Below, one piece after another: positions 6,970 to 45,048 of a DNA stretch of 64,000 nucleotides. The stretch covers positions 270,997 to 334,996 of the forward strand of contig JAJYNN010000002.1 in the NCBI GenBank assembly GCA_021786315.1. Reading direction: 5' to 3'. The stretch comes from a bacterium (GTDB taxonomy: Bacteria > Patescibacteriota > Microgenomatia > Daviesbacterales > UBA10151). Position 1 is the stretch's first letter. Each line of letters opens with the position of its first letter. The translations under genes were made by a program, and so were the position numbers. Under the pieces are notes generated by a model. It saw nothing but the letters and a program-made list of their open reading frames with translations, was not told where the DNA came from and ran no database searches.

Positions 6970-7041
6970 GTGTTGACAAAATAATGGGGAAGCTGTAATT
7001 ATATTGAGGGCCTCTAATTTCCCCCTCTAGTTTTTAAGATT

Positions 7042-8658
7042 ATGAAGTATATTTTTGTCTCCGGCGGAGTAATTTCCGGTATTGGTAAAGGTGTGGCTAC
7101 TGCCTCGATTGCCCTTAAGATCGGATCTGCAGGGTTTAAAGTTGCCCCCCTAAAAATTGACCCCTATTTAAATGTTGATGCCGGGACTATGAACCCTATT
7201 CACCACGGAGAGGTATTTGTTTTGGATGATGGCTCGGAAACTGACCAGGATTTGGGAAACTACGAGAGGTTTTTAGATGAACCCCTAAATAAAACAAATT
7301 ATGCGACATCCGGCCAGGTGTATTTATCGGTAATCCAACGGGAAAGAAGTTTGGGTTATGACGGTGACTGTGTGGAGGCGGTGCCCCACATTCCGGAAGA
7401 GATTATCAGAAGGATTGATGAGGCGGGAAAAAGCAAAAAAGCGGATATTGCGGTGATTGAGATTGGGGGAACGGTGGGTGAGATGCAAAATGTTTTCATC
7501 TTTGAAGCCAACAGGATGCTAAAGCTGAAAAAACCGGAAGATGTGATCCATATCCATCTAAGCTATCTGCCGATTCCTCCTTCTTTGGGCGAGATGAAGT
7601 CAAAACCGGTCCAGATGTCGGTCAAAGAGTTAAACTCCATGGGGATCCAGCCGGATATTTTACTGGCCCGATCGGGTGTTCCGGTTGATGAAATTCGCCG
7701 GAAAAAACTGGCACTGTTTTGTTCGGTGGAGCCGGAGGATATTATCTCGGCTCCGGACGTTAGAAACATTTATGAAGTGCCGGTTAATTACGAGGATGGT
7801 GGATTATCGGGAAGAATCCTGCAAAAACTGAGACTTAAAAGAAAGAACAAAGACTTAAAGGAGTGGCGGAAGTTTGAAAGCAAAGTTTCTTCTGCTGATA
7901 AACCTCTGAAAATTGGCATTGTGGGTAAATACTTCTCTACCGGCGATTTCACTTTGGCTGATTCCTATATTTCCGTTATTGAGGCTTTGAAGCATGCCGC
8001 TTTTACTCAAGGATATAAACCGGAAATTGCTTGGATTGATTCCGGGAAACTTTTAAAAGATATTGATCAGCTGCGGGATTACCAGGGGATTATTGTTCCG
8101 GGGGGGTTTGGATCCCGGGATATAGAAGGAAAAATTGAGGCCATCAGGTTTTGCCGGGTTAATAAAATTCCTTATTTCGGTTTGTGTTACGGAATGCAGT
8201 TGGCAGTAGTTGAATATGCCCGGAATGTTCTAAGGATGGCAGAGGCCAATACAACAGAAATTGATCCCAAAACAAAGTATCCGGTCATTCATATTATGTC
8301 TGATCAACAAAAGAAACTTTTGGAGAAAGATTATGGGGGAACGATGCGGTTGGGGGCTTGGGAGTGTAAATTAAAACCGGGAAGTTTGGTCAGAAAACTT
8401 TATGGGAAACCCAAGATTTCCGAACGCCACCGCCACCGCTATGAATTTAACAATGAGTTTCTAAAACAATTTAACAAGGAGCTATATGTTTCCGGAACCT
8501 CTCCTGACGGGAAACTGGTAGAGATTGTCGAGATGAAGGACCACCCGTTTTTTGTGGGAACCCAGTTCCATCCGGAATTAAAATCCCGCCCCCTTGACCC
8601 TCATCCTTTATTCATGGGTTTTATTAAAGCGGCTTCGAAAATTATTTTGCCCTCTTGA
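7042..8658 (+). CDS. pyrG: CTP synthase
   Basis: 538 aa. N-terminal MKYIFVSGGVISGIGKG. C-terminal GATase domain (GLCYGMQ, HRHRYEFN). Confidence 0.95.
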   Translation: MKYIFVSGGVISGIGKGVATASIALKIGSAGFKVAPLKIDPYLNVDAGTMNPIHHGEVFVLDDGSETDQDLGNYERFLDEPLNKTNYATSGQVYLSVIQRERSLGYDGDCVEAVPHIPEEIIRRIDEAGKSKKADIAVIEIGGTVGEMQNVFIFEANRMLKLKKPEDVIHIHLSYLPIPPSLGEMKSKPVQMSVKELNSMGIQPDILLARSGVPVDEIRRKKLALFCSVEPEDIISAPDVRNIYEVPVNYEDGGLSGRILQKLRLKRKNKDLKEWRKFESKVSSADKPLKIGIVGKYFSTGDFTLADSYISVIEALKHAAFTQGYKPEIAWIDSGKLLKDIDQLRDYQGIIVPGGFGSRDIEGKIEAIRFCRVNKIPYFGLCYGMQLAVVEYARNVLRMAEANTTEIDPKTKYPVIHIMSDQQKKLLEKDYGGTMRLGAWECKLKPGSLVRKLYGKPKISERHRHRYEFNNEFLKQFNKELYVSGTSPDGKLVEIVEMKDHPFFVGTQFHPELKSRPLDPHPLFMGFIKAASKIILPS

Positions 8659-8694: not shown

Positions 8695-9600
8695 ATGGCT
8701 GGAAAGATTGAAAAATATATGCCTGATTTGGACCGCATCAAGGAACATAGCAAAACCCCCGATCCATTAGTCCTTTCCCCTGAAGAATATGATGAAATCC
8801 TGGCAGAGCACAAGTTATACAGAGGCTCCCGTCTTTCCGATGTTGGCCTGTTAAAATGTATGGAGCTTGGGCTCATTAAAATTTGGAATGAAGATGGAAC
8901 ATGTCCTTTTAACGAAGAGCGTGTCCAGAGTTGCTCTTATGATGTCACACAAGGAAATGAATTTTGGCATTACATTGAACACGAGATTTCTGAAATCGAG
9001 TACGGAACTCACAAAGAAACAATCCAAAATTTGGATTTGCTTGCTTATAACTTCAGGAATACTGGAGAGACTTTTGTTTACCATCCCGGAAGCGTTGTCC
9101 TCTCATTCATCGGAGAAGGGATAAGCTTGGCTAATGTGGTGTCTGCTGATTTGGGGGGCAAAAGTTCTTTGGGGCGCCTTGGAACTCTAAACCACCAGAC
9201 TGCTTCGTTAGCTCATGCAGGTTTTAGTGGGAAAATCATGACAGAGCATTCTGTTAGCAATAGGTTATCTGTGAAAGTCCCGGTTGGCGCACCTATTGGG
9301 ACGCTTGTCTTTACCCTGCTTGACCAGCCCAGTACCCGGCCCGAAAACCAAAAATCTGACAGCCTAAGTAAAGCCTACAGACAGCGAGGGCCTTTTGGCT
9401 ATTGGAAGGATAAATGGACACAGATAAAAGCTGAGGCTATAGGAAGGTATATTTTAGCCAGGGAAAATGGTTCTGTTACTAATGACCACTACCTGGTGGA
9501 TATCAGAAGGAAGGCTGAGGAATATGATTCCCTTGTTGCTAGGGGGATTATTCCGGGACAAAATCCGGTTCCTTCGGGAAACGGCAGACACAGCATGTAG
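8695..9600 (+). CDS. dCTP deaminase/dUTPase-fold protein (DCD-like) with a ~120-aa N-terminal extension
   Basis: 301 aa. Carries the DCD signature GKSSLGRLG (compare GRSSLARLGL) and a jelly-roll C-terminal half (GFSGKIMTEH...PIGTLVF). Confidence 0.6.
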   Translation: MAGKIEKYMPDLDRIKEHSKTPDPLVLSPEEYDEILAEHKLYRGSRLSDVGLLKCMELGLIKIWNEDGTCPFNEERVQSCSYDVTQGNEFWHYIEHEISEIEYGTHKETIQNLDLLAYNFRNTGETFVYHPGSVVLSFIGEGISLANVVSADLGGKSSLGRLGTLNHQTASLAHAGFSGKIMTEHSVSNRLSVKVPVGAPIGTLVFTLLDQPSTRPENQKSDSLSKAYRQRGPFGYWKDKWTQIKAEAIGRYILARENGSVTNDHYLVDIRRKAEEYDSLVARGIIPGQNPVPSGNGRHSM

Positions 9601-9621
9601 AGCTTTTTGTAAAAAATAATT

Positions 9622-10131
9622 ATGGCAATCGAGAAGTTATCAGAAATATTAAAAAGGGTAGAAAAAGAGAATCTAATTGAAGGTTTGTGTGAACAAACAG
9701 GTAAGGGTGTGGGATTGAATCTAAGGTTAGGTAAAGTTTCCCAATGGATGGAAGGATATGCTGTAGGTTTTGACAGCAAGGGTTTGGATTATCGGCAAGC
9801 TGGGTGGAGGAACGTTGCCGATTGCCAGGGTGCGAGGTTCTTAGCTGAGTGCGACCAAGAGGACTTAGTTACCTCTCAAATCTTAAAACCTGGGGTTTAT
9901 TATCGGGTTGAGACGGTGGAAAAACTAAATGTTCCTACAGATCTCTTACCGGACGTTCGCTCAACACAACTTTTAGTGGATAACGGTTTGCGTTTAGAAG
10001 TGCCTGGAGGGATTGAACCAGGTTATACTGGGGCTATTCGGATGGGTTTGGTTAATCAAAATAGTTTTTCTGTCCCCATCCGTCTTGGCAGCCCGATTTG
10101 CCGGGTGGTTTTTCATAAAGTCGAAGAGTAG
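9622..10131 (+). CDS. dCTP deaminase-family protein (paralog 2)
   Basis: 169 aa. Shows LNLRLG (the DCD N-terminal DLRLG motif), GIEPGYTGAIRMGLVN (compare IDPGFRGEITLELxN) and ICRVVF. Confidence 0.65.
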   Translation: MAIEKLSEILKRVEKENLIEGLCEQTGKGVGLNLRLGKVSQWMEGYAVGFDSKGLDYRQAGWRNVADCQGARFLAECDQEDLVTSQILKPGVYYRVETVEKLNVPTDLLPDVRSTQLLVDNGLRLEVPGGIEPGYTGAIRMGLVNQNSFSVPIRLGSPICRVVFHKVEE

Positions 10132-10166
10132 TCTTCATCTGAATAAACTGTAAAGGTTAATAAGAT

Positions 10167-12038
10167 ATGCCAACAAAAGAAGGAAGTAGCCCCCAACAGA
10201 TTCTGGAAGTATACGGAATGCCACCAGTGAGAAAAGAAAATTATTTTGGACGCGGCGCTATCAACCTGCTTGCTCCGTTAGACTACAAGATGAGCATGTT
10301 GATCGGGGATCCGGATAGCGAAACGGCAATTATTACGGCTTGGGGTGACCCTTGGCACGCTTTACCCGAGGATATAGTGAAGGAATGCTCGGTAGCTGCC
10401 TCTCTAAGAATTCCCTGGGGTGTGGATTTAATGCTGCACAATTTAGCCAGTAATCCCCATATTCGGAGGGTGGGAATTTATGCCGCCGGGAAAAACGACA
10501 ACACCGAAACCGGGCAGATGCCTCTGGGTATTACCCGATCTTTGTGGACTAATGGAGTAACAGATGAGGGTGGGGTTATTGGCACTGGCCATAAACTTTC
10601 TCCGGAGCTGGTAAACGACGGCGCTATTGAAGCTGTCAGAGGTGTTTTAAATAATGTGGAGCTGTGTGAGTGGAGCCATCTTTCCCCGGAGGAATTATTA
10701 CAGGAAATTCAAAGATTCCCAAAGGTTGGACCATATGGGGAGAAGGTAGTGCTTCCGGAATTTAAAATCCAGGAAGTGGATACCTGGCCATCAGAGCTGG
10801 AGGGGCTAGTGGTTCGCAGGAGAGGAGCTTTTAATGCTTGGTTGGGAATAATTTCATCTATTATGCGTTATGGGCGGGAAGCATGTTTAGAAACAGCTAC
10901 CAGTATTAAGATTAAGGAACTTCCCTTTGTTCGGGTGGTGATTGAGGGCGAGAGGCCCTTTGATGATATTCCCCAATGGGCTTTGGACCTAAAAGCAGTA
11001 TCAATCACTCCTGAGGGATTGGAAGACTATTACCAAAGAATTTTTAGACCCGAGAGGCACCTCAAGGAGATCTTTCCTGGAGTGAAAAAGTTTGAAAGGC
11101 CAAAAGAGGAGAAGTATTTGTATGGGGAGTTAATCCATGCTTTTCCTAGGGATGAAAAGTACACCCGGGCTGTGTTGGAGCTGGCAAAACAAAGCGGCAT
11201 TCAAGTTACCAGGCAATTTTTGCGGGGTCTTGCTGGAGAGGCTACCGAGCAAATGGAAGAAACTGCTGACAGTGTTATTTCGGCAAAAGATTTGGATCCA
11301 GTACAACAAGCAGAGATTTTGCTAGAGGTGTATACACCAAGAACGAATCAGGTAGCCAAGGCTATCGAAAGAATCCGCCAGATTCCTGATGATGCCGATA
11401 AAACCTTTATCCTCTGGGATCCGGAAACCCATGGGATGCAATACCGGGGCAGACCATGTCTTTTGGAAATGGGACTTTTGGTAAGAGATGGGGCAATTTC
11501 CGGAAAAGCCGTCTTCCGGACGCATGACATGGCTAAAGGCTGGTTGCTCAACGCTTATGGAATCTGGAGAACTGTTGAGGATATTTGTAAAGAAACCGGC
11601 TATAAACAAGGTCCTCTGGTCATGGAATCGGAATCAGCTCATTTCTACAAAGGCGATATCAATTGGGTTAATGAGCTTTGGCAACAAGAGGTGCTCACTA
11701 GAGATATAGCTAAGCGGTTTGATTCAGCAAAGGCTGATCCCCGCGGTAACATTGTTGTGGATATTACCCCCGATAACAGGGTAGTAGTGAAGCTGACTGA
11801 CCCAAAGAGCGGAGCTACTATTCATAAATTTGAGGAAGATTCTGCCCGAGAGGCTCTTGCCCGTTTATCTCAGGAAGAAATTATTTCTCAACCCGGACAT
11901 GGTCTAGATATTGGTTTGCAATTAGGAGTTTTGGAGGTTGCCAGAAGATTGCGGGGAAAGGGTGTTGATATAGTCTTTACGCAAGATCAACCGTTTAAAA
12001 CTTGGGGAGCAGTTGAAGCAGAAGTAATAAAGGACTAA
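10167..12038 (+). CDS. divergent thymidylate synthase/dCMP-hydroxymethylase superfamily protein, 623 aa with large insertions and a C-terminal extension
   Basis: By eye against E. coli ThyA: IRQIPDDADKTFILWDPE aligns with LKNDPDSRRIIVSAWNVGE. GRPCLLE aligns with the APCH catalytic Cys. FRTHDMAKGWLLNAYG aligns with YQRSCDVFLGLPFNIASY, with the uracil-specifying Asn retained. ESAHFY aligns with GDTHLY. The N-terminus (KENYFGRGAINLL) resembles the TS N-terminal DRTGTGTLSIFG. Confidence 0.65.
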   Translation: MPTKEGSSPQQILEVYGMPPVRKENYFGRGAINLLAPLDYKMSMLIGDPDSETAIITAWGDPWHALPEDIVKECSVAASLRIPWGVDLMLHNLASNPHIRRVGIYAAGKNDNTETGQMPLGITRSLWTNGVTDEGGVIGTGHKLSPELVNDGAIEAVRGVLNNVELCEWSHLSPEELLQEIQRFPKVGPYGEKVVLPEFKIQEVDTWPSELEGLVVRRRGAFNAWLGIISSIMRYGREACLETATSIKIKELPFVRVVIEGERPFDDIPQWALDLKAVSITPEGLEDYYQRIFRPERHLKEIFPGVKKFERPKEEKYLYGELIHAFPRDEKYTRAVLELAKQSGIQVTRQFLRGLAGEATEQMEETADSVISAKDLDPVQQAEILLEVYTPRTNQVAKAIERIRQIPDDADKTFILWDPETHGMQYRGRPCLLEMGLLVRDGAISGKAVFRTHDMAKGWLLNAYGIWRTVEDICKETGYKQGPLVMESESAHFYKGDINWVNELWQQEVLTRDIAKRFDSAKADPRGNIVVDITPDNRVVVKLTDPKSGATIHKFEEDSAREALARLSQEEIISQPGHGLDIGLQLGVLEVARRLRGKGVDIVFTQDQPFKTWGAVEAEVIKD

Positions 12039-12047
12039 ACTAAAAAT

Positions 12048-12614
12048 ATGGCAGTTTTAGGACTTGATGAAGTACTTCGAAGAGTAAAAGAAGAAGGCCT
12101 CCTGGAAAATTTGGGAGACCGGGATTTAAATAACCCTGAAGGTGCGGGGTTGGATTTGCGTCTGGGAATTTTGTCCCGGATGACAGAAGGAGGGGCGTTT
12201 ATTGAAAGTGATGGGCCGGAAGGTTTAGGTAAAAGAAAGGGTGTTCAAACTGAGGTAGTTGCTGAATATAAACCAGGAGCCAAAACCCAGGAAGAAGTAG
12301 TTATTAAACCGGGTGAATATTATTTCGTTACCACTATTGAATCATTTAATGCTTCGGAAGACTTGTTATTTGTTCTTTATCCAAGAACTACTTTAATGAG
12401 AATGGGGCTTTTGCTTTTGGCCAACCGGGGAGATCCGGGATATAAGGGAACTGTTTCTATGGGTTTAGTAAATTTAAGTAAATTTGATGTCAAATTACAA
12501 ATGGGAGCCAGGGTTTGTAATGTAGTTTTCTATAAAGTAGAGGGTGAAACAGTTATGTACCGTGGCCAGCACGGCGGAAGGATAACTCCTACAGAGGTCG
12601 AACAACAAGTCTAA
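12048..12614 (+). CDS. dCTP deaminase-family protein (paralog 3; Dcd or bifunctional Dcd-Dut-like)
   Basis: 188 aa. Shows GLDLRLG, PRTTLMRMGLLL (compare GRSSLARLGL), GDPGYKGTVSMGLVN and CNVVFYKVEGE. The C-terminal dUTPase motif 5 is absent. Confidence 0.7.
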   Translation: MAVLGLDEVLRRVKEEGLLENLGDRDLNNPEGAGLDLRLGILSRMTEGGAFIESDGPEGLGKRKGVQTEVVAEYKPGAKTQEEVVIKPGEYYFVTTIESFNASEDLLFVLYPRTTLMRMGLLLLANRGDPGYKGTVSMGLVNLSKFDVKLQMGARVCNVVFYKVEGETVMYRGQHGGRITPTEVEQQV

Positions 12615-13079
12615 GCCCCAAGAAAGAGACCATCTTGTAGTAAAAACTACCCTGTTGACAAGAATTCCCAAAAGCTGCTACGTTTAAATGTACTGATCTG
12701 CTCCTGGCAGATTTTTTGTGATTTATGGAATCTGAATCGAAAATTGGACGGGAACAAAATAATAAAAATAATAACGGAACGGAAAGCATTCCGTCTAAAG
12801 CCCTTTATCCTGATAAAGGTGGACACTTTTTAAGAAGCCAATACTGGAAAGCGATGAAACTAATCGACCGCTCTTCTGAGCCCAGTTTCCGTTCAATGGT
12901 AACTGTTCCTGTTACTCCAGCAGATGTTAGCTGGCAAAGAAGAAGGTTCATGCCGCGCCATGGTATTAATGACGGTAGGCATTGACTTAAATCAAGGAAG
13001 CAGTTAGAATATCTGCAGTAAACATCTATTACTAGAGTTTTCCTGAATCCACTGGTAATAGAGAAGTCTAAGGAAAACG

Positions 13080-13904
13080 ATGAGTATTTCAGTTCCTTCA
13101 ATGCAGGATTTGTTAGAAGCGGGTGTTCATTTTGGACACCAGGTCCGCCGTGGCCACCCCAGGATGAAAGAGTTTATCTTTGGTGCCCGCGAAGGTGTCC
13201 ACATCATTAACCTGGAACACTCCGAGAAACTTTTACAGGAAGCTGCAGATTATGTTAATAAATTGGGGGCTGAGGGCAAGGTTATCCTTTTTGTGGGGAC
13301 CAAAAAACAAGCCCAGCCAATTATTAAAGAAGCAGCCGAAAAATGTAACGCTCCTTATGTTGATATCAAATGGATTGGCGGGTTCTTAACCAACTTTGAC
13401 GAAATCCGCAAGAATGTTAAAAAGCTTAATGATTTGGCAGAAAAAACCGAAAAAGGTGAATTAGTCCGTACTAAGAAAGAGCAGCTCTTGATTTCCAAGA
13501 AGCTGGAAAAGTTTGGCAAGGAATGGGGTGGAATTGCCAACATGGACAAGCTTCCGGATGCTTTGTTTATTGTCGATTGCGTGATGGAAAAGACTGCTGT
13601 TTTAGAGGCCAACAGGATGGAAATCCCGGTCATCGGCATTGCGGATTCCAACTGTAACCCGGCTCTTTTGGCCTTCCCGATTCCCGGAAACGATGATGCT
13701 ACCAAATCAATCAAGATTATTGTGGATGCTATCGCCGATGCTTATTCCCAAGGGTTAAAAGCTGCCGGGAAAGCGGCTGAAGCCAAGAAGAAAGAAGAAG
13801 AGGCTAAAGAAGAGAAAGCTGACGCTTCAATCGAAGCTGATGTGGAAGATGCTGAGGTGGCTGTAGAACAAGAAGCGGTTGAAGAAGCGAAAAGAGAAGT
13901 TTAA
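13080..13904 (+). CDS. rpsB: 30S ribosomal protein S2
   Basis: VHFGHQVRRGHPRM, and an acidic C-terminal tail. Confidence 0.95.
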   Translation: MSISVPSMQDLLEAGVHFGHQVRRGHPRMKEFIFGAREGVHIINLEHSEKLLQEAADYVNKLGAEGKVILFVGTKKQAQPIIKEAAEKCNAPYVDIKWIGGFLTNFDEIRKNVKKLNDLAEKTEKGELVRTKKEQLLISKKLEKFGKEWGGIANMDKLPDALFIVDCVMEKTAVLEANRMEIPVIGIADSNCNPALLAFPIPGNDDATKSIKIIVDAIADAYSQGLKAAGKAAEAKKKEEEAKEEKADASIEADVEDAEVAVEQEAVEEAKREV

Positions 13905-20914: not shown

Positions 20915-22489
20915 ATGGTTCTGTATCGTAAATACCGTCCACAAACTCTTGATGAAGTCATTGGCCAGACATTGGTCAAGCAAGCCTTAAAATCTGCCAT
21001 ATCTTCCGGAAAATTGTCCCACGCTTACCTCTTTTGTGGTCCCCGCGGGACAGGCAAAACTTCGACGGCCCGGATTTTGGCCAAGATGGTAAACTGCGAA
21101 GCCGGAAATGAAAAAGTCCCGTGCAATAAATGTTCAGCCTGTATGTCCATTACTGATGGATCAAATCTGGATGTGGTGGAAATGGATGCAGCATCCAATA
21201 GAGGCATTGAAGATATCCGGGTGTTACGGGACAACATCAAACTTTCCCCGACATCCTTAAAGAAAAAAGTCTACATTATCGATGAGGTGCATATGTTATC
21301 AACTGATGCCTTCAACGCCCTTTTAAAGACTTTGGAGGAGCCACCAGAGCATGTTTTATTTGTTTTGGCGACTACTGAGTTGCAAAAAATTCCGGCCACT
21401 ATTTTGTCCCGGGTTTCCAAGCTGGACTTTAAATCTGCAACCAGCGAGGAACTGGTTGAAGCTTTGGAAAGGGTAGCCAAGGCCGAAAAGATAAACGCGG
21501 ACAAAGGGGCAATTTTGGAGATCGGTAAAAAGGCCCAGGGCAGTTTCCGTGATGGAATTAAATTATTGGATTTGGTATCTACTCTTCCGGAAATCAACCA
21601 GGCGGCGGTCGAAGAATTTTTACGCGGGGGAGCGTTTGCCGGGGTAGCCGGACTCCTGGAAAATATTGCCGCCAAAAAAACCACAGAAGCCTTATCAAGT
21701 TTAGAAAAAGAGGTGGGTGCTGGGGTCAATATTAAAGAACTAACGATTACAATCCTGGATACCTTAAGGCAATTACTGCTTATTAAACACGGCTTGGGGA
21801 AGCAACTGGTAAGCGGGGAGGTTGATGAGGAGAAATATAAGGTGCTGGAAGGGCTGGCCGGAAAATTCGAAGCGGCCCATTTAGCTGTTGTAATTGAGAC
21901 TTTCCAAAAAAGCTTTGAACAGAACCGGTATTCCTCAGTGGCAATCCTGCCTTTGGAATTGGCGGTGGTGGAAAGTGCATCAGAGTATCAGAGTATCGGA
22001 GTATCGGAAGATCGGAAGGCGGAGGTGTTGGAAGATAAGCAGATCAGTAGAACGGAAAAATCTGATACGCCGATACATCGACACTCCGAAACACCAGCTG
22101 AGATTCCCATCATTGCCGTCCCTTCAGAGAACGCTTCCGAGGATATGCAAAAAATTACGGAAAAATGGAACTATATCCTGGAAACTGTCCGGGCGGCTAA
22201 TTTTTCCCTGGAAGCCTTGCTCCGTTCTTCGAGAATTGTAAAATGTGAGGGTAAAAACGTAGTTTTGGAAGTTCCCTATTCCTTCCACCAGAGGATAATT
22301 GAAGCCCCTAAAGCCCGGGATTTACTGGAAACAATTTTTGCTGATATTCTCCAGAGAAAGGTTCTTGTCTCAACCGTATTGGGGAAGAAAGCGGTAAAAA
22401 GTGAAGGATTGGCCAATGTTGAGGTGGCGGCGGATGATGAGATTGTCAAAATTGCCGCGGAGATTTTTAATTCGGAGCCGGCAAGCTAA
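20915..22489 (+). CDS. dnaX: DNA polymerase III subunit gamma/tau
   Basis: YRPQTLDEVIGQ, Walker A GPRGTGKTS, Zn module CNKCSAC, DEVHML, SRV. Confidence 0.93.
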   Translation: MVLYRKYRPQTLDEVIGQTLVKQALKSAISSGKLSHAYLFCGPRGTGKTSTARILAKMVNCEAGNEKVPCNKCSACMSITDGSNLDVVEMDAASNRGIEDIRVLRDNIKLSPTSLKKKVYIIDEVHMLSTDAFNALLKTLEEPPEHVLFVLATTELQKIPATILSRVSKLDFKSATSEELVEALERVAKAEKINADKGAILEIGKKAQGSFRDGIKLLDLVSTLPEINQAAVEEFLRGGAFAGVAGLLENIAAKKTTEALSSLEKEVGAGVNIKELTITILDTLRQLLLIKHGLGKQLVSGEVDEEKYKVLEGLAGKFEAAHLAVVIETFQKSFEQNRYSSVAILPLELAVVESASEYQSIGVSEDRKAEVLEDKQISRTEKSDTPIHRHSETPAEIPIIAVPSENASEDMQKITEKWNYILETVRAANFSLEALLRSSRIVKCEGKNVVLEVPYSFHQRIIEAPKARDLLETIFADILQRKVLVSTVLGKKAVKSEGLANVEVAADDEIVKIAAEIFNSEPAS

Positions 22490-23217
22490 TGGAAAAACTT
22501 AGATTAGGGATTTTTGCTTCCGGGGGCGGGACAACCGGAGAAGTAATCTTTGATAAGGCTGCTGTTATCTTAACCAACAACCCTCAAGCCGGCGTTATTG
22601 AGCTGGCTAAGCAACATCACATCCCTTGTGAAGTTTTGCTTCCAAGATCAGAGTTCCGTGTACTCAACTCTGTCGGGGAAAATGACAAAGAGTCGTCCCG
22701 CCTAAAATACGGGGAGTATCTGATTACAATTCTGAGTAACTATGCTGTTACCCATGGATCGTTGAATGGTTTTGATACTTTAATTCCTCAGAATGTAATT
22801 CAAGCATTTAAACTAGTGAATTCTCATCCCGGGCCTTTAGACCCCGGGTTTTTGGATTTTGGCGGAGAGGGTATGCATGGGTTGGCAGTACACCAAGCGG
22901 TAATCAATTTTTCTCGGATGATTGACCGGCCTTTTTCGACAGCAGTTTGTTTACATCGGGTAGTGGAAAAATATGATAAGGGGGAGTTGCTATCCCTTGT
23001 TGAAGTGGCGATTAAAGAAGATGACACCGCCGAGAGTTTGCAAGCGCGGGTGAAGGAAGTGGAGAAAGAGCAGAATAGAAAATTTTGGGAAAAAGTTGAA
23101 CAAGATAATGGGGAACTGAGGGTTATACAAAGGACTTCGAGAGTGATTTTACCGGGGGAGGAGGATCTTTTATTTCAGGCGAAAGAAGAGGCAATTGCCG
23201 CTTATCCTCACGGATAA
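22489..23217 (+). CDS. formyltransferase-family protein (PurN-like N-terminal formyl-transferase domain)
   Basis: LGIFASGGGTTG (compare PurN VLISGNGSN), NSHPGPL (compare NIHPSLLP with the catalytic N..H), and HQAV...DKGELL (the Asp region). Confidence 0.55.
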   Translation: MEKLRLGIFASGGGTTGEVIFDKAAVILTNNPQAGVIELAKQHHIPCEVLLPRSEFRVLNSVGENDKESSRLKYGEYLITILSNYAVTHGSLNGFDTLIPQNVIQAFKLVNSHPGPLDPGFLDFGGEGMHGLAVHQAVINFSRMIDRPFSTAVCLHRVVEKYDKGELLSLVEVAIKEDDTAESLQARVKEVEKEQNRKFWEKVEQDNGELRVIQRTSRVILPGEEDLLFQAKEEAIAAYPHG

Positions 23218-24341: not shown

Positions 24342-24432
24342 ATTTCTAATTTCTAAGTACTAATTTCTAAATAAATCCCAATTCCAAAATTACTTAGATT
24401 AATTGGGTCAATTAGAAATTAGATCAATTTAT

Positions 24433-25731
24433 ATGTTAAAAACCTTTACTTTAAAAAATGGAATTCATGTTGCGACTTATAATTTGCCGAACTTAAAATC
24501 TGTTCATCTCCGTTTGGCTACCAAAGGCGGCATGCTAACCCAGAAACAGGATGGCGCAGCCCACTTGATGGAGCATATGCTGGTCCAGGGGATACCGTTT
24601 CTTCCAACCGCGGAAGAGTTTTCTTCTTATATAGAAAGCTTGGCTGGAACCTATGGGGCTTATACCCAGCAACTTCAGGTAGGTTTTGAAATTACCGTTC
24701 CTGCCCCATATTTGGATATTGCTGTGGAGATTTCCGCCCAGACTTTTTTTGAGCCTCTTTTTAAGCCGGAGGCTTTGGAAAAAGAAAGACAGGTAGTGGT
24801 TACCGAAATTAAACAGCGCTTAGATTCGAAGTGGCATAAAATTGGGGAATTTTTCCAACAATCCAGATTCAAGAAAGGAAGTATTATGACCCGGGAGTTG
24901 GGAGGTACAGTTGAGGAGCTGGAAAGGTTAACCCTGAAAGACTTAAAGGATCTTTGGGAGAAGTATTTTGTTCCGAAAAATACTTACCTGATAGTAGTAG
25001 GCAACTTTTCTGAATTGAAGCTTAAGGAACTTCTGCAAAAACATTTTGATAAATATACCTCCAAGGACCCATTTTTGGGTTTCCCTAAAATTTCCAAAAG
25101 TGATTTTTCAAGTGAAGAAATTTCTATACGTCATGATAAAACTTTGCAAAGCAATTATTTGGACCTGACATTTCCGGGGGTGACCTTGCTTGATAACGAT
25201 TTAAGGATGAAACAGAGCTTGGCATTGACGACCTTGGGCAGATTGCGCAACAGCAGGCTCTACAGGTTATTAAGGTACAACAAAGGTTTGGTTTATGATG
25301 TCCGGGCAGGATCTAGTCTTTTGCCGGGGTTGGGGTATGTTTTTGTTTCCTCAGAGGTATCCAAGGAACACCTTTGGGAAGTGGCAGGATTAATTGTGGC
25401 GGAAGTGGCCGATTTTGTTAAAAACGGACCCTTGACGGAGGAGATCGAATTTTCCAAAAATTTCTTAATTAACCAATGGCTAATGGCTTTTGACCACCCG
25501 TCATCAATTGCTTCCTGGCTAGAGGGGGAACTGCTTTGGGAGGACAAGATCAGGCTTCCGGAAGAAATTGTTTCTGAAGTAAGAGAAATAAAAGCGAAGG
25601 ATGTTTGGGAGATGATGCAAAACAATTGGGATTTTAGTAAACTGAATTTAACAGTTCAGGGTCCGTTAGGGAAAACTCCTGAAACGGTAAGGAAATTCAC
25701 TGAACTTATAGAAAGACTTAAAAATGGCTAA
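24433..25731 (+). CDS. M16-family zinc peptidase (insulinase-like, catalytic subunit)
   Basis: HLMEHML HxxEH inverted zinc-binding motif. Confidence 0.8.
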   Translation: MLKTFTLKNGIHVATYNLPNLKSVHLRLATKGGMLTQKQDGAAHLMEHMLVQGIPFLPTAEEFSSYIESLAGTYGAYTQQLQVGFEITVPAPYLDIAVEISAQTFFEPLFKPEALEKERQVVVTEIKQRLDSKWHKIGEFFQQSRFKKGSIMTRELGGTVEELERLTLKDLKDLWEKYFVPKNTYLIVVGNFSELKLKELLQKHFDKYTSKDPFLGFPKISKSDFSSEEISIRHDKTLQSNYLDLTFPGVTLLDNDLRMKQSLALTTLGRLRNSRLYRLLRYNKGLVYDVRAGSSLLPGLGYVFVSSEVSKEHLWEVAGLIVAEVADFVKNGPLTEEIEFSKNFLINQWLMAFDHPSSIASWLEGELLWEDKIRLPEEIVSEVREIKAKDVWEMMQNNWDFSKLNLTVQGPLGKTPETVRKFTELIERLKNG

Positions 25732-28018: not shown

Positions 28019-29287
28019 ATGAAATATAAACTTTCCACTTTAAAAAACGGTTTAACAGTTATCTCTATTGACCAACCCAATATCGAATCCGTAACTACCA
28101 TGGTGGCAGTTGGGGCAGGTTCCCGGAATGAATCTAAAAATGAAATGGGGATTGCCCACTTTTTCGAACATATGTTTTTTAAGGGATCGCGCAAGTACCC
28201 AACAGCCTTGGAAATTTCTACTCTAGTTGATGGGGTGGGGGCAATTAATAATGCTTTTACCTCTAAAGAGTTTACTGGTTATTGGATAAAATCTGCGACG
28301 AATAATGTGGAGTTAGCAGCCGATATAATATCAGCTGGTCTTACTGAGCCAATACTGTCTGAAGAGGAGATAGATCGGGAAAAAGGTGTCATTATTGAGG
28401 AGAAAAGAATGTATCAGGATAACCCTACTCGTTATGTTTGGGATCTTTTCTTTAGTTTAGTGTTTGGAAATACACCTTTAGGATGGAACGTCATTGGGAC
28501 TGATCAAACTATAACCTCTTTTTCTAGGAATGATTTTCTAAAATACATCCGAAGTTTTTATTCCCCAGAAAACATGGCATTAATATTCGCCGGCAAGATT
28601 GGCAATAAAGGGGTAGAACTTGCTAAGCAATATTTTTCAGACATGCCAACGCACCGGAACAACTCTCCCTTGGCATTTAAACCGAAAGAGCAGAAAAAAC
28701 CGGGGATAAACATTTTCTACAAAAAGACAGATCAAGTAAATGTTGTTTTGGGTGGTTTGGGTTATAAACGTAGTGATTCCAGAAGATACACAGCTGCATT
28801 GATAGCAAGTCTTTTGGGGGAGGGAATGAGTTCTCGTTTGTTTATCCAAGTCAGGGAGAGGAGAGGTTTGGCGTATCATGTCGCAGCTGATATCGAAGAT
28901 TTTAGGGATACCGGTATTTTTGCTGCTTATGCTGGGCTTAAGCAGGAAAAGGTGGAGGAAGGTGTGAAGGTTATAAAAGAACAGTTGGACAGGCTGAAAG
29001 TGGAAAGTGTCCCAGGGGATGAACTTAAAAAAGTGAAAGAAATGATAAAAGGAAGATTAGCAATTAGATCAGAATCAACGAATTTTTTGGCAGAGTTTTA
29101 CGGTTTACAGTGGGTTGTGGACCGAAATATTGAAACCCCGGAAGAATATATTAAAAAAATAGAAGCAGTAACAGCTGAGGATGTAAAAGAAGTTGCTAAC
29201 GATCTTTTTGAGAGCCGAAAACTCAATTTACAGATAATTGGCCCCTTGAAAAATTCCTCAGAATTTGAAAGAATCTTAGAGGGCTGA
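28019..29287 (+). CDS. M16-family zinc peptidase (second insulinase-like protein)
   Basis: HFFEHMFFKGS HxxEH motif. Confidence 0.8.
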   Translation: MKYKLSTLKNGLTVISIDQPNIESVTTMVAVGAGSRNESKNEMGIAHFFEHMFFKGSRKYPTALEISTLVDGVGAINNAFTSKEFTGYWIKSATNNVELAADIISAGLTEPILSEEEIDREKGVIIEEKRMYQDNPTRYVWDLFFSLVFGNTPLGWNVIGTDQTITSFSRNDFLKYIRSFYSPENMALIFAGKIGNKGVELAKQYFSDMPTHRNNSPLAFKPKEQKKPGINIFYKKTDQVNVVLGGLGYKRSDSRRYTAALIASLLGEGMSSRLFIQVRERRGLAYHVAADIEDFRDTGIFAAYAGLKQEKVEEGVKVIKEQLDRLKVESVPGDELKKVKEMIKGRLAIRSESTNFLAEFYGLQWVVDRNIETPEEYIKKIEAVTAEDVKEVANDLFESRKLNLQIIGPLKNSSEFERILEG

Positions 29288-32297: not shown

Positions 32298-33305
32298 GTG
32301 AGTTGGATAGCTTTAGGTATAATTAGATCCATGAAAAATTTTTGGAACAAGCTTAATAAACCATTTTTTGCTCTGGCTCCTATGGAGGATGTAACTGACA
32401 CTGCTTTCCGTCAAGTAGTGGCCTCGATTGGTAAACCGGACGTTTTTTTTACTGAGTTTGCCAATGTTGACGGAATTTTTTCAGCTGGGGAAAAGAAGGT
32501 CTTCCCTCGTTTGAAGTTTACCTCAAAAGAACATCCAATTGTGGCTCAGATTTGGGGGGCGAAATTAGAAAACTTTACCAAAGCTGCCAGATTAATTGCG
32601 GAGATGGGTTTTGACGGGATCGATATTAATATGGGTTGTCCCCAAAAGTCAGTTATTAAACAAAAAGCCTGTTCTGCTTTAATTAATTATCCCGAAAAAG
32701 CCAAAGAAATATTTTTAGCAGTTAAAAGAGGTGCAGGGGATTTACCGGTAAGTATTAAAACCCGAATTGGTTTTGACAAAATCCAGACAGAAGAATGGAT
32801 CGGATTTTTATTAGAATTAGAACCGGCAGTCTTAACGGTTCATGGGCGAACTGTTAAAGAACAGTCAGAAGGCTTGGCACATTGGGATGAAATCGGCAAG
32901 GTTGTAAAAATGAGAGACAAATTAAAATCCAAAACTTTAATTATGGGTAATGGGGATGTGGCGAGCTTGGATAATGCAAGGGAAAAATGTCAGCAGTATG
33001 GGGTGGATGGGGTGATGATCGGGCGCGGAGTGTTCCATAATCCTTGGGTTTTTAATCCCGAAGTTGATTTAAATAAAGTAACAATCAAAGATAGGTTAAA
33101 AGTTTTGGAAAAACACCTGCAGCTTTTCGAAAAAAGTTGGCAAGGGGAAAAGGACTTTAACATTTTGAAAAAATTCTTTAAAGCATATATTCGGGACTTT
33201 GATGGTGCTTCAGAACTCCGGACTAAATTAATGGAAGTAAATAATCCTCAAGAGGTCCATAATCTTCTGCAAGGTGACGCCTTGCAGAGAACTAAACAAT
33301 TGTAG
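32298..33305 (+). CDS. dus: tRNA-dihydrouridine synthase
   Basis: FALAPMEDVTDTAFR, and a TIM-barrel FMN site including a catalytic Cys (MGCPQ). Confidence 0.88.
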   Translation: MSWIALGIIRSMKNFWNKLNKPFFALAPMEDVTDTAFRQVVASIGKPDVFFTEFANVDGIFSAGEKKVFPRLKFTSKEHPIVAQIWGAKLENFTKAARLIAEMGFDGIDINMGCPQKSVIKQKACSALINYPEKAKEIFLAVKRGAGDLPVSIKTRIGFDKIQTEEWIGFLLELEPAVLTVHGRTVKEQSEGLAHWDEIGKVVKMRDKLKSKTLIMGNGDVASLDNAREKCQQYGVDGVMIGRGVFHNPWVFNPEVDLNKVTIKDRLKVLEKHLQLFEKSWQGEKDFNILKKFFKAYIRDFDGASELRTKLMEVNNPQEVHNLLQGDALQRTKQL

Positions 33306-33954
33306 AGGTGCGTAGGGTAGAGATCATGCTTTCTATTTCCGGCGTGTAATCGATTGGGCTGCTGGCAGGAAAACCTGTCGTTGAAACCCTGTTGGTGATT
33401 TTTAGAACCGGGTTGGTATTAGTGCACCAAAGGTTTTGGGTAAAGTTGGGAGTAACTGTAGTTGATTTTAAAGTAGGGATAGACCCAATACTTACAGTGG
33501 TCCCGTCGCACCCGGCTAAGCTGTTATCAACAATTACCGTGATTGGTTTTTGGGCTGTCCCACAAATCACATTTAGCTGGTCAATCCCGGTTGCCGGATC
33601 AAATTCAAAGTTAGGGGAGTTGTTACAAGTCAAAAGCCCCCAATTTGCCGGATAATTAAGAGTAAATCCCGGACCAGTAACAGTTTTTACTAAGTTAAAA
33701 GTAGTGACAGGAACTGGTGTCGGGGTAACTACTATTATTTGAGGAGTGGGGGTGGGAATAGGAGCGCTGCTGATAGGGGTGGGCGTCGGGGTTGTTATAA
33801 CTGTGGGTATGGATGTAGGTGTAGGGGTTGGAGTCACAACCGCAGTTGGAGTGCTCACTGCTCTGAAAATAAAAGAGATCAAAAATCCGATGATAATTAA
33901 AAAAATAATTACAGCGATGATGATAAGAATAATTACAATAATCTGCCTACTCAC
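33292..33954 (-). CDS. hypothetical secreted protein with a Pro/Thr-rich linker
   Basis: N-terminal TM (IIVIILIIIAVIIFLII), then (TP)n repeats and a C-terminal domain. Confidence 0.45.
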   Translation of the reverse strand: MSRQIIVIILIIIAVIIFLIIIGFLISFIFRAVSTPTAVVTPTPTPTSIPTVITTPTPTPISSAPIPTPTPQIIVVTPTPVPVTTFNLVKTVTGPGFTLNYPANWGLLTCNNSPNFEFDPATGIDQLNVICGTAQKPITVIVDNSLAGCDGTTVSIGSIPTLKSTTVTPNFTQNLWCTNTNPVLKITNRVSTTGFPASSPIDYTPEIESMISTLRTSTIV

Positions 33955-34064
33955 AGCTTATCTTAATTTAGCAAAATCAAGATAGGAAAAGATAAGAGAG
34001 AGGTCGTAACTTTGAAAGAATATCTTAGGTTTTTTTATGTTAAAATTACTCAGGAATAATTGCG

Positions 34065-35908: not shown

Positions 35909-36082
35909 TGCAATATATACAAAGAAATTATATAGTTATCTCATGCGTTTGGGAATGAAGATCTTAGCCTATCTTGTGGTGGCCCTGATTCTGATGGGCT
36001 TGGGGTATTATTTTATTTTCTCCTCAAAAAATTCCAATACCGGAACAGTTGGAGAACCTCCCATAAAAAGCATCTACGGATA

Positions 36083-37810: not shown

Positions 37811-37882
37811 GGATTACTGGATTCATACCCCAAACTCACGCAATTATTTCTGCTCAAATTTAAGATTTACCCATTAATTTCG

Positions 37883-38983: not shown

Positions 38984-39004
38984 ATTTGTGAGATAATAGC
39001 GCCA

Positions 39005-45047: not shown

Positions 45048-45048
45048 A

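What the first reader, a model, noticed from the sequence alone, without database searches (positions are those of the whole stretch)
8695..12614. Candidate deoxypyrimidine-modification module inserted between pyrG and rpsB: three dCTP-deaminase-fold paralogs around a giant TS-superfamily enzyme
Four consecutive co-oriented genes sit between two universally conserved genes, and these are DCD-like (301 aa), DCD-like (169 aa), TS-like (623 aa) and DCD-like (188 aa). The three DCD/dUTPase-fold proteins carry the DLRLG, GxSSLxRLG-like and DPGY[KR]G signatures. The central protein has the thymidylate synthase/dCMP-hydroxymethylase catalytic core (DPDxxx-IxxxW, PC nucleophile, R-x-x-D, AH[FI]Y). One dcd plus one thyA would be ordinary dTMP synthesis. 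Three DCD paralogs feeding a doubly sized, highly divergent TS-fold enzyme looks like a dedicated pathway making a (hyper)modified dUMP/dCMP derivative. Phage hydroxymethyl-dU/dC systems do this, as do deoxynucleotide-depleting defence systems. An alternative is an unusual thymidylate route in a folate-poor reduced genome. I could not place this arrangement in any described system.
Basis: partly seen in the sequence, partly recalled or inferred. Interest (0 to 1): 0.8.

Follow-up and report, generated by a model that had tools for sequence, protein, structure and literature searches.

The report
Thymidylate operon with three-domain archaeal-type synthase
The four genes are most likely an ordinary dCTP-to-dTMP (thymidylate) pathway sitting in a conserved chromosomal slot, not a DNA-modification or defence module; the unusual part is that the thymidylate synthase sits between two uncharacterised domains (MtrA-like and DUF4346), as in many DPANN archaea.

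Summary
The four co-oriented ORFs exist exactly as described (8695-12614, + strand, between pyrG and rpsB). They are not "three dCTP deaminases around a giant TS".

- **301-aa protein:** it keeps the dCTP-deaminase catalytic Glu/Ser/Arg.
- **188-aa and 169-aa proteins:** these are 37%-identical paralogs that lack that Glu. They look like archaeal-type DCD-fold dUTPases, and the 169-aa copy is degenerate.
- **623-aa protein:** its layout is an MtrA-like domain, then a ThyA-class core, then DUF4346. The core is closest to the methanogen-type model. All uracil/methylation residues are present (Cys431, Arg451, Asp454, Asn462, His492, Tyr494, Tyr319).
- **Distribution:** this three-domain layout is common, with at least 404 50%-identity clusters below 1e-30. 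Sources name members "thymidylate synthase" in DPANN archaea and Thermoproteota.
- **Synteny:** in about 20 related bacterial loci the same topA...rpsB slot carries this gene. Its neighbours there are dcd and dut, or nrdD, glyA and folD, or tmk, or tdk.
- **Negative results:** there are no PADLOC hits and essentially no viral relatives.

Verdict: this is a housekeeping dTMP operon. The residual novelty lies in the uncharacterised accessory domains, which have lost MtrA's cobalamin ligand His. It also lies in a subfamily that has lost the two phosphate-binding arginines and gained Arg429 plus a 65-aa insert.

The parts
6973..7002 (+). Promoter-like site upstream of pyrG, a possible start of a pyrG-to-12614 transcription unit
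   Evidence: TTGACA-18-AATTAT, 10 of 12 matches, with TG. This is a consensus match only; the number of such sites equals the shuffle expectation.
7042..8658 (+). pyrG (CTP synthase), 36 bp upstream of the module; it supplies CTP
   Evidence: translation. Orthologous genes in L002, L003 and L005 carry CTP_synth_N and GATase. tblastn identity is 69-77%.
8695..9600 (+). 301-aa dCTP-deaminase-like protein (inferred reaction: dCTP to dUTP), with an N-terminal extension of about 45 aa and a C-terminal extension of about 70 aa
   Evidence: PF22769 at 5e-20. TIGR02274 at 84.8 bits, below the 92.8 cut-off. E. coli Dcd 1xs1 matches at 1e-16, and the alignment puts S157, R161 and E184 on S111, R115 and E138 but H174 on D128. 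Orthologs in L002, L003 and L005 share the N-terminal KIEKYxPDLD motif and keep the Glu.
9622..10131 (+). 169-aa degenerate DCD-fold paralog of the 188-aa protein. It lacks the deaminase Glu, its motif II is lost or shifted, and it has EPGY instead of DPGY. It may be a non-catalytic or altered-specificity subunit.
   Evidence: PF22769 at 7e-14. It is 37% identical to the 188-aa protein, E 2e-27. Motifs are shown. I did not find it in the other loci examined.
10167..12038 (+). 623-aa three-domain thymidylate synthase (MtrA-like domain, ThyA-class core with helical insert, DUF4346 domain)
10239..10751 (+). MtrA-like Rossmann-type domain (about aa 25-195). MtrA's cobalt ligand His84 is replaced by Thr113, and Glu54 is deleted.
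10800..11702 (+). ThyA-class TS core (about aa 212-512), closest to the methanogen-type model
11145..11339 (+). Helical insert of 65 aa (aa 327-391, four predicted helices) between the Tyr94-equivalent loop and the 'NQ' helix; specific to this subfamily
   Evidence: Alignment A2. AF2 helices 330-389 have pLDDT 83-93. In the family alignment the insert co-occurs 20 of 20 times with loss of the RR pair and gain of R429.
11457..11459 (+). Codon of the catalytic nucleophile Cys431 within GRPC. G428 occupies the E. coli L143 position and R429 is subfamily-specific.
   Evidence: Cys is conserved in 262 of 263 sequences.
11718..12002 (+). DUF4346 (PF14251) domain, a beta3-alpha3 fold of unknown function, with invariant D524, G527 and H578
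12048..12614 (+). 188-aa archaeal-type (DCD-fold) dUTPase-like protein (inferred reaction: dUTP to dUMP + PPi)
   Evidence: PF22769 at 1e-19 and PF00692 dUTPase at 3e-7. NF002598, the archaeal dUTPase model, gives 9e-17 (61 bits, below the 130 cut-off). It keeps R-T-T-x-x-R and DPGYKG but has Gly in place of the deaminase Glu.
12695..12713 (+). Terminator-like hairpin plus T-run about 80 bp after the last gene of the module
   Evidence: This is a consensus match only.

Best explanation
This is a vertically inherited, housekeeping thymidylate-synthesis operon of a small-genome bacterium.

Proposed route:
1. PyrG makes CTP.
2. A ribonucleotide reductase makes dCTP. It is not in this window, but nrdD is adjacent in relatives.
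3. The 301-aa Dcd-like enzyme deaminates dCTP to dUTP.
4. The 188-aa DCD-fold dUTPase hydrolyses dUTP to dUMP. The degenerate 169-aa paralog may be a partner or spare subunit.
5. The 623-aa enzyme methylates dUMP to dTMP by the ThyA mechanism. Cys431 adds to C6 and 5,10-methylene-tetrahydrofolate from SHMT donates the carbon.

Shown:
- Gene content, domain architecture and conservation of catalytic residues.
- Synteny and gene linkage in related loci.
- Loss of the MtrA cobalamin-ligand residue.

Inferred:
- The activity of each enzyme.
- Folate as the one-carbon carrier.
- Operon status.
- The idea that Arg429 replaces the lost Arg126/Arg127 pair in binding the dUMP phosphate.

The MtrA-like and DUF4346 domains form a module that is contiguous in other proteins, and here it brackets the TS core. 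Its role is unknown. My best guess is binding, presentation or recycling of the pterin cofactor.
For: Catalytic residues:
- The family alignment conserves Cys431 in 262 of 263 sequences, Arg451 in 261, Asp454 in 253, Asn462 in 260, His492 in 248, Tyr494 in 256 and Tyr319 in 259.
- These residues align to ThyA C146, R166, D169, N177, H207 and Y209.
- Asn at the N177 position indicates dUMP. Asp169 is not Asn, and the L143 position is not acidic. These rules are quoted from PMC13326640.

Gene linkage in related loci:
- L008 has DCD-like, DCD, TS, then Tmk.
- L009 has DCD, TS, then thymidine kinase.
- L007 has DCD, TS, an unknown gene, then SHMT.
- L002, L003 and L005 have pyrG, Dcd, a classical Dut and TS. 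L005 also has a nucleoside deoxyribosyltransferase.
- L011-L024 have nrdD and TS followed by glyA and folD, or by rpsB. L019 was verified by Pfam.
- The archaeal locus L026 has DCD, TS, dUTPase and NDK.
- Protein P0111 fuses a dCMP deaminase domain to the same three-domain TS.

Synteny and annotation:
- The same topA...rpsB-tsf slot is used throughout, and GC content is uniform.
- Sources name the family 'thymidylate synthase'.

The DCD-fold proteins:
- The 301-aa protein keeps E184, S157 and R161.
- The two shorter proteins lack the Glu.

Folate use:
- The window also encodes a formyltransferase-domain protein.
Against: - No biochemical data exist for any member of the three-domain family; I found no papers.
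- No protein passes a curated NCBIfam equivalog cut-off: TIGR03283 71.5 of 174.55, TIGR02274 84.8 of 92.8, NF002598 61 of 130.
- The window subfamily lacks both dUMP-phosphate arginines (A410 and D411 in place of R126 and R127).
- The residue at the L143 position is Gly, and N/S/H/G/D across the family. It is not the bulky hydrophobic residue associated with methyl products.
- The Dcd-like protein has His where the conserved DPG Asp normally sits.
- I could not check the rest of the genome for thyX, thyA, folA, RNR or tmk. The organism was not found in the genome collection.
Confidence: 0.75

Rival explanations
1. Base-modification pathway. The TS-fold enzyme makes 5-hydroxymethyl-dUMP or another C5 derivative rather than dTMP, fed by the DCD-fold enzymes. 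The product is then incorporated into DNA.
For: - The L143-equivalent position is Gly428, and N/S/H/G/D across the family. It is not a water-excluding hydrophobic residue.
- The Arg126/Arg127 pair is lost.
- The accessory domains have unknown function.
Against: - Asn462 indicates a uracil substrate. Asp454 is not the D169N signature. The L143 position is not Asp or Glu as in known hydroxymethylases.
- The neighbours are tmk, tdk, glyA, folD, nrdD, dut and ndk. There are no glycosyltransferases, kinases for modified nucleotides, or aminotransferases.
- The gene sits in a conserved housekeeping slot with uniform GC.
- Only one weak viral relative was found, 20% identical over the TS core.
Confidence: 0.07
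2. The enzyme is a thymidylate synthase that uses a non-folate one-carbon system inherited from archaea. Candidates are a methanopterin-like pterin, or a corrinoid bound by the MtrA-like domain, in place of methylene-tetrahydrofolate.
For: - The closest curated model is the methanogen-type TS TIGR03283.
- The N-terminal domain is an MtrA homolog.
- The family is mainly archaeal, from DPANN and Thermoproteota.
- Gly57 and Asn64 of MtrA's nucleotide-tail pocket are conserved as G85 and N92.
Against: - MtrA's cobalt ligand His84 is Thr113 here, and S/T/M/N across 263 sequences. Its partner Glu54 is deleted.
- In the bacterial loci the gene is directly followed by glyA and folD, which are folate enzymes.
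- The window encodes a formyltransferase-domain protein.
- No mtr or methanopterin genes appear in any locus examined.
Confidence: 0.1
3. Anti-phage defence by deoxynucleotide depletion. The DCD-fold enzymes destroy dCTP or dUTP pools on infection.
For: DCD-fold enzymes are used in a known defence system (my own knowledge). Three DCD-fold genes sit in one locus.
Against: - None of the four proteins hits any PADLOC model at E up to 0.01.
- The locus lies in a conserved slot between pyrG or topA and rpsB across related genomes. There is no island signature and no mobile genes.
- Defence dCTP deaminases are not linked to a TS, tmk or glyA (my own knowledge).
Confidence: 0.02

Closest known systems
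Three-domain 'thymidylate synthase / DUF4346 domain-containing protein' of DPANN archaea and Thermoproteota (MtrA PF04208, Thymidylat_synt PF00303, DUF4346 PF14251; about 460-530 aa)
   Same: - The domain order is the same and so are the invariant TS residues.
- The invariant residues of the accessory domains are shared (W59, G85, D524, G527, H578).
- DCD and dUTPase genes also flank it in an archaeal genome.
   Different: - The window protein is only 20-30% identical to these relatives.
- It carries a 65-aa helical insert.
- It has A410-D411-K412 in place of R-R-A, and G428-R429 in place of [NSH]-P before the catalytic Cys.
- It is found in bacteria in a bacterial syntenic context.
- The family appears to be experimentally uncharacterised.
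Methanogen-type stand-alone thymidylate synthase (NCBIfam TIGR03283, about 200 aa)
   Same: It is the best-scoring curated model for the TS core. It is a short ThyA fold lacking the bacterial elaborations.
   Different: The score of 71.5 bits is far below the 174.55 cut-off. The window protein is fused to two extra domains and carries an insert.
Classical ThyA (E. coli, L. casei) and the E. coli dcd-dut-thyA route to dTMP
   Same: - The same catalytic residues and fold are present.
- The pathway logic is the same: dCTP to dUTP to dUMP to dTMP (textbook knowledge).
   Different: - The Arg126/Arg127 pair is absent and the L143 position is Gly.
- The extra domains are not found in classical ThyA.
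- In E. coli these genes are dispersed, whereas here they are clustered.
- Here the dUTPase is DCD-fold (archaeal type) rather than the classical Dut.
MtrA, the cobalamin-binding subunit of methyl-H4MPT:CoM methyltransferase (PDB 5l8x, 5laa)
   Different: - The cobalt ligand His84 and Glu54 are not conserved.
- There is no membrane anchor and there are no mtrB-H neighbours.
- Here the domain is fused to a TS.
Bifunctional DHFR-TS of protozoa and plants
   Same: A TS is fused to a second domain of cofactor metabolism. The TS core aligns to T. cruzi DHFR-TS.
   Different: No DHFR domain is detectable. The partner domains here are MtrA-like and DUF4346, and their function is unknown.
Phage TS-fold nucleotide modifiers (T4 dCMP hydroxymethylase, MilA, flavin-dependent 5-hydroxy-dCMP synthase 9iqc)
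   Different: The diagnostic residues differ. Here the enzyme has Asn rather than Asp at the N177 position, Asp rather than Asn at D169, and Gly rather than Asp/Glu at L143. The genomic context is cellular and housekeeping.

Membership tests
ThyA-class thymidylate synthase (PF00303, EC 2.1.1.45) | Profile match above the Pfam gathering score | tested here: met
   PF00303 at 34.9 bits against a cut-off of 24.3, residues 391-508.
ThyA-class thymidylate synthase (PF00303, EC 2.1.1.45) | Catalytic Cys in a Pro-Cys motif, plus Arg166, Asp169, Asn177, His207, Tyr209 and Tyr94 equivalents | tested here: met
   C431, R451, D454, N462, H492, Y494 and Y319. The alignment to solved TS structures is, and conservation ranges from 248 to 262 of 263 sequences.
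ThyA-class thymidylate synthase (PF00303, EC 2.1.1.45) | Arg126'/Arg127' pair that binds the dUMP phosphate across the dimer | tested here: not met
   A410 and D411 align to the RR pair. 188 of 263 family members have RR. All 20 members of the window subfamily lack both arginines and carry R429 instead.
ThyA-class thymidylate synthase (PF00303, EC 2.1.1.45) | Bulky hydrophobic residue at the L143 position (associated with a methyl rather than a hydroxymethyl product) | tested here: not met
   G428 aligns to this position. The family column reads N98/S50/H29/G21/D18. The rule is quoted from PMC13326640.
ThyA-class thymidylate synthase (PF00303, EC 2.1.1.45) | TS fold | tested here: met
ThyA-class thymidylate synthase (PF00303, EC 2.1.1.45) | dUMP plus CH2-THF converted to dTMP plus DHF | not testable with these tools
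   This needs an enzyme assay or complementation of a thyA deletion.
Methanogen-type TS (NCBIfam TIGR03283 equivalog) | Score at or above the curated cut-off | tested here: not met
   71.5 bits against 174.55. Even the DPANN relatives reach only 139-168 bits.
MtrA (cobalamin-binding methyltransferase subunit) | Rossmann-type MtrA fold | tested here: met
MtrA (cobalamin-binding methyltransferase subunit) | Cobalt-ligating His84 with its Glu54 hydrogen-bond partner | tested here: not met
   His84 aligns to T113 and Glu54 aligns to a deletion. The family column is S97/T76/M34/N19 with no His majority. The residues are defined in PMC4915002.
MtrA (cobalamin-binding methyltransferase subunit) | Curated model score and mtrB-H gene context | tested here: not met
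   TIGR01111 gives 22.3 bits against a cut-off of 249.15. No mtr genes appear in the window or in any related locus.
dCTP deaminase (TIGR02274), for the 301-aa protein | Catalytic Glu138 with Ser111 and Arg115 | tested here: met
   E184, S157 and R161 align to the E. coli Dcd residues.
dCTP deaminase (TIGR02274), for the 301-aa protein | Curated cut-off and the conserved DPG Asp (E. coli D128) | tested here: not met
   84.8 bits against 92.8. The D128 position is H174. It is His in L002 and Glu in L003 and L005; the L007-L009 homologs retain Asp.
dCTP deaminase (TIGR02274), for the 169-aa and 188-aa proteins | Catalytic Glu138 | tested here: not met
   Both have Gly (sequence ...MGLVN) where E. 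coli Dcd and 4xjc have Glu.
Archaeal DCD-fold dUTPase (NF002598), for the 188-aa protein | Profile match, motif II Arg-Ser/Thr-Ser/Thr, motif III Asp, and absence of the deaminase Glu | tested here: inconclusive
   The E-value is 9e-17 but the score of 61.1 bits is below the 130 cut-off. R-T-T-x-x-R and DPGYKG are present and the Glu is absent. Activity has not been tested.
TS-fold hydroxymethylases and hydroxylases (T4 dCH, MilA, 5ho-dCMP synthase) | N177D (cytosine substrate), L143D/E (hydroxymethyl product), D169N (flavin hydroxylase) | tested here: not met
   The window protein has N462, G428 and D454. The criteria come from PMC13326640.
dCTP-deaminase-type anti-phage defence | Match to a PADLOC defence model, and a variable or island genomic context | tested here: not met
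   There are no PADLOC hits for any of the four proteins. The syntenic slot is conserved.

The most novel reading that the evidence does not exclude
The MtrA-like plus DUF4346 module that brackets the TS core may be a built-in cofactor device. It could bind the pterin or a redox cofactor and make the enzyme independent of a separate dihydrofolate reductase. That could work by re-reducing the oxidised pterin in place, or by supplying the hydride. This would explain why the gene clusters with glyA and folD but never, in the loci seen, with folA.

The bacterial subfamily (RR lost, Arg429 gained, 65-aa insert) would then be a remodelled active site acquired from DPANN-like archaea.

The evidence does not exclude this reading and supports it only indirectly:
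- The module is contiguous in NF002128-type proteins.
- DUF4346 also terminates an archaeal DHPS-like pterin protein.
- The accessory-domain residues W59, D524, G527 and H578 are nearly invariant.
Probability: 0.15. Interest if true: 0.75.

Novelty: new variant of a known kind. Interest (0 to 1): 0.4.

Why it matters
As a DNA-modification or defence system, the finding does not hold up. What remains is a widespread three-domain thymidylate synthase: at least 404 50%-identity clusters score below 1e-30, and it occurs in DPANN archaea, Thermoproteota and a small-genome bacterial lineage. Its two accessory domains have no known function, and I could find no published characterisation.

Thymidylate synthesis is essential. 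How ThyA-type organisms without an obvious DHFR recycle their pterin is a long-standing gap. One cited paper also notes that archaeal TS enzymes are barely characterised (PMC9931769).

The bacterial subfamily is a natural experiment on the TS active site. Both inter-subunit phosphate arginines are lost, and an arginine next to the nucleophile co-varies with that loss. The locus also suggests that a dcd-TS-dut cluster is shared, or was exchanged, between DPANN-like archaea and bacteria.

Tried and rejected
- **Organism identity.** Two genome-contig scans (alignment A1, then the single protein) found no relative, and a third attempt with A2 had no usable pattern. I therefore could not name the organism or check its genome for thyX, thyA or folA. 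Cluster look-ups returned no names.
- **Wasted search.** A profile search with A2 in the word-indexed database returned only the nine closest relatives plus the window protein itself.
- **Internal domain duplication.** hhalign found no similarity between the MtrA-like and DUF4346 domains (probability below 1%), so I rejected the idea that one is a duplicate of the other.
- **Literature.** Searches for DUF4346, PF14251, MJ0757, TIGR03283, MtrA plus thymidylate synthase, and MtrA-like found nothing on this architecture.
- **Defence.** PADLOC gave no hits.
- **Phage origin.** One weak viral relative was found, and PHROG hits were only to generic dCTP deaminase and TS families.
- **RNA elements.** There are no Rfam families and no tRNAs in the window.
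- **Other thymidylate or folate genes in the window.** I scanned about 50 further ORFs with Pfam. There is no thyX, thyA, folA, glyA, tmk or classical dut.
- **Cobalamin-dependent TS.** I considered this and rated it low because the His84 ligand is not conserved anywhere in the family.

Full report
**Observation**

The window carries four + strand ORFs at 8695-9600 (301 aa), 9622-10131 (169 aa), 10167-12038 (623 aa) and 12048-12614 (188 aa). They are separated by 9-35 bp and lie between pyrG (7042-8658) and rpsB (13080-13904). GC content is uniform across the region (0.42-0.46).

The three small proteins match Pfam DCD (PF22769) at 5e-20, 7e-14 and 1e-19. The large one matches Thymidylat_synt (PF00303) at 1e-8, above the gathering score. 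The genes and their superfamily assignments are therefore real.

**The three DCD-fold proteins are not equivalent**

- The 301-aa protein aligns to E. coli Dcd (1xs1, 1e-16). S157, R161 and E184 fall on the catalytic S111, R115 and E138, but His174 replaces the conserved Asp of the DPG motif. Orthologs in related loci share its N-terminal KIEKYxPDLD extension and keep the Glu.
- The 188-aa and 169-aa proteins are 37% identical to each other (E 2e-27). They are barely similar to the 301-aa protein. Both have Gly where the deaminase Glu should be.
- The 188-aa protein keeps R-T-T-x-x-R and DPGYKG. It also matches dUTPase models: PF00692 at 3e-7, and the archaeal dUTPase NF002598 at 9e-17, although the latter is below its cut-off.
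- The 169-aa protein has a degenerate or shifted motif II and EPGY.

My reading is one dCTP deaminase, one archaeal-type dUTPase, and a degenerate duplicate of that dUTPase. None passes an NCBIfam equivalog cut-off, so the activities are inferred.

**The 623-aa protein has three domains**

2. *Residues about 212-512* are a ThyA-class core, closest to the methanogen-type model TIGR03283 (7e-20, 71.5 bits, cut-off 174.55). It carries a 65-aa four-helix insert at residues 327-391.
3. *Residues about 518-612* are DUF4346 (PF14251). The hit is weak in this protein but clear in relatives.

A direct alignment to solved TS structures puts C431, R451, D454, N462, H492 and Y494 on E. coli C146, R166, D169, N177, H207 and Y209. 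It puts A410-D411 on the R126-R127 pair and G428 on L143. In a 263-sequence family alignment the catalytic residues are conserved in 248 to 262 of 263 sequences.

Diagnostic positions were summarised in a 2026 paper (PMC13326640):
- Asn at the N177 position indicates dUMP, and Asp indicates dCMP.
- An acidic residue at L143 goes with hydroxymethylation.
- D169N marks the flavin-dependent 5-hydroxy-dCMP synthases.

By these positions the enzyme reads as a uracil-specific enzyme that is neither a known hydroxymethylase type nor a hydroxylase type. However, it lacks the bulky hydrophobic residue at the L143 position.

**The architecture is widespread**

- An exhaustive profile search found 7831 proteins at E up to 1e-3 and 404 at E up to 1e-30. 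Most are 460-530 aa.
- Relatives score above Pfam thresholds for all three domains in the same order.
- A search with one of them returned 957 relatives. Where sources name them, they are called 'thymidylate synthase', 'thymidylate synthase (methanogen type)' or 'DUF4346 domain-containing protein'. They come from Diapherotrites, Nanoarchaeia, Woesearchaeota, Aenigmarchaeota, Micrarchaeia and Thermoproteota.
- One relative (P0111) carries an additional dCMP deaminase domain.
- The window protein belongs to a small subfamily of 20 of the 263 sequences sampled. Every member lacks both arginines of the RR pair, has Arg429 next to the catalytic Cys, and carries an insert of at least 60 aa. By contrast, 188 members have RR, no insert and no Arg429.

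**Context decides the function**

The window and its closest relatives share the order clpB-topA-pyrG-[module]-rpsB-tsf-frr-rseP. The slot contains:
- Dcd, a classical Dut and TS in L002, L003 and L005. L005 also has a nucleoside deoxyribosyltransferase.
- DCD-like, DCD, TS and thymidylate kinase in L008.
- DCD, TS and thymidine kinase in L009.
- DCD, TS, an unknown gene and SHMT in L007.
- In 14 further metagenomic loci, nrdD and TS followed by glyA and folD, or by rpsB. In L019, Pfam confirms NRDD at 6e-173, SHMT at 3e-154 and both FolD domains.

An archaeal genome shows DCD, TS, dUTPase and NDK. Every recurrent neighbour belongs to dNTP, thymidylate or folate one-carbon metabolism.

None of the four proteins hits a PADLOC defence model. 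Only one weak viral relative exists. A promoter-like site precedes pyrG and a terminator-like hairpin follows the 188-aa gene. These are consensus matches only, and they are compatible with a single pyrG-to-12614 transcript.

**Mechanism**

The best-supported account is the classical route:
1. PyrG makes CTP.
2. A ribonucleotide reductase makes dCTP.
3. The 301-aa Dcd-like enzyme makes dUTP.
4. The 188-aa dUTPase makes dUMP.
5. The 623-aa TS makes dTMP, using methylene-tetrahydrofolate from SHMT.
6. Tmk then makes dTDP.

The enzyme steps are inferred from residues and context and are not demonstrated. Folate rather than methanopterin is inferred from the adjacent glyA and folD genes and from a formyltransferase-domain gene in the window. 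I propose that Arg429 compensates for the lost Arg126/Arg127 pair. This rests only on the perfect co-variation.

**The accessory domains**

- MtrA binds cobalamin through His84, which is held by Glu54 (PMC4915002). In this protein His84 aligns to Thr113 and Glu54 to a deletion. Across the family the column is S/T/M/N. MtrA-style His-on cobalamin binding is therefore unlikely, although the nucleotide-pocket residues Gly57 and Asn64 are kept as G85 and N92.
- The NCBIfam model NF002128 covers both the MtrA-like domain and DUF4346 contiguously. TIGR00284, an archaeal DHPS-like protein, ends in DUF4346. So the two domains form a module that also occurs without a TS and alongside pterin-binding enzymes. 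In this protein the TS core sits between them.
- The two domains are not homologous to each other.
- Its role remains open. I favour a pterin or cofactor-handling role, at low confidence.

**Limits**

- The organism could not be named and its genome could not be searched. Whether this is the only TS, and whether a DHFR exists, remain untested.
- The rest of the 64-kb window holds no thyX, thyA, folA, glyA, tmk or classical dut.
- The full-length AF2 model is moderate (pLDDT 78.9, pTM 0.52), so I did not interpret domain packing.
- I found no literature on this architecture. One paper notes that archaeal TS enzymes are poorly characterised and that ThyA and FolA normally form a coupled unit (PMC9931769).

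**Verdict**

This is a housekeeping thymidylate operon, not a modification or defence module.

The noteworthy remainder has three parts: an uncharacterised three-domain TS family, a bacterial subfamily with a remodelled phosphate site, and non-orthologous replacement of classical Dut by duplicated DCD-fold dUTPases in this genome.

I rate it a new variant of a known kind, with interest about 0.4.

Noticed in passing
Relatives P0034, P0198, P0018, P0010 and L019:4902-6773: The NCBIfam model NF002128 (a 390-position 'MtrA' model) matches both the N-terminal MtrA-like domain (model positions about 125-277) and the C-terminal DUF4346 domain (about 285-370) of the TS fusions. TIGR00284, an archaeal DHPS-like protein, also ends in DUF4346. 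MtrA-like plus DUF4346 therefore appears to be a contiguous module elsewhere, and the TS core sits between the two halves here.
   Followed up: partly
L011-L024, e.g. L019:3194-8897: In a sister clade of the same bacterial lineage, the TS fusion is flanked by an anaerobic ribonucleotide reductase (nrdD) upstream. Downstream lie glyA and folD, or rpsB-tsf. There are no dcd or dut genes in that slot.
   Followed up: yes
L002:9567-10001, L003:8762-9190, L005:8273-8731 compared with window 9622-10131 and 12048-12614: Close relatives use a classical bacterial trimeric dUTPase (142-152 aa, ending in an RG[GK]FGxxG-type motif). The window genome instead has two DCD-fold dUTPase-like paralogs. This looks like non-orthologous displacement followed by duplication.
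   Followed up: partly
L026:5287-8400 (archaeal assembly GCA_964427715.1): An archaeal member of the TS family is flanked by a DCD gene on one side and by dUTPase and NDK genes on the other. This mirrors the bacterial arrangement and may reflect transfer of a dcd-TS-dut cluster between domains.
   Followed up: no
L008:3465-4514: Two tandem thymidylate-kinase-like genes follow the TS fusion. The second is 41% identical to the first and is cut by the contig end.
   Followed up: no
L002:11844-12566, L003:11977-12642, L005:12385-13050, L007:5933-6508: Conserved proteins of 191-240 aa with no Pfam family lie directly downstream of the TS fusion in several relatives. The 221-aa type is shared by L003 and L005 at 51% identity. 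The window has no counterpart.
   Followed up: partly
window 22489-23217 (+): A 242-aa protein has only a Formyl_trans_N domain (6e-13). It looks like a short Fmt-like formyltransferase without the usual C-terminal domain. It indicates use of formyl-folate.
   Followed up: no
window about 33300-40200: GC content drops to 0.36-0.39, compared with 0.41-0.46 in most of the rest of the window. Several sizeable ORFs here have no Pfam family (33292-33954 -, 34958-35908 -, 36083-37810 +, 39372-40211 +). A VirD4/TrwB-like coupling protein lies next to the region at 40690-43050 (-). This may be a horizontally acquired segment.
   Followed up: no
window 44580-47297 (+): A cluster encodes an FMN_bind protein, ApbE (flavin transferase), and a 503-aa protein that combines an RnfD/NqrB-like membrane domain with an NAD_binding_1 domain. 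This is an unusual fusion.
   Followed up: no
window 55635-56054 (+): A 139-aa protein matches baeRF_family10, a bacterial archaeo-eukaryotic release-factor-like family (2e-12).
   Followed up: no
window 12615-13079, and the whole window: A 465-bp non-coding gap lies upstream of rpsB and has no Rfam match. The whole 64-kb window has no tRNA gene and no Rfam family at gathering threshold. Nearly all genes are on the + strand and GC skew is steadily positive.
   Followed up: partly
window 24403-25731 and 28019-29287 (+): Two M16-family (insulinase-like) peptidase genes lie a few kb apart, flanking cysS and small unknown ORFs.
   Followed up: no
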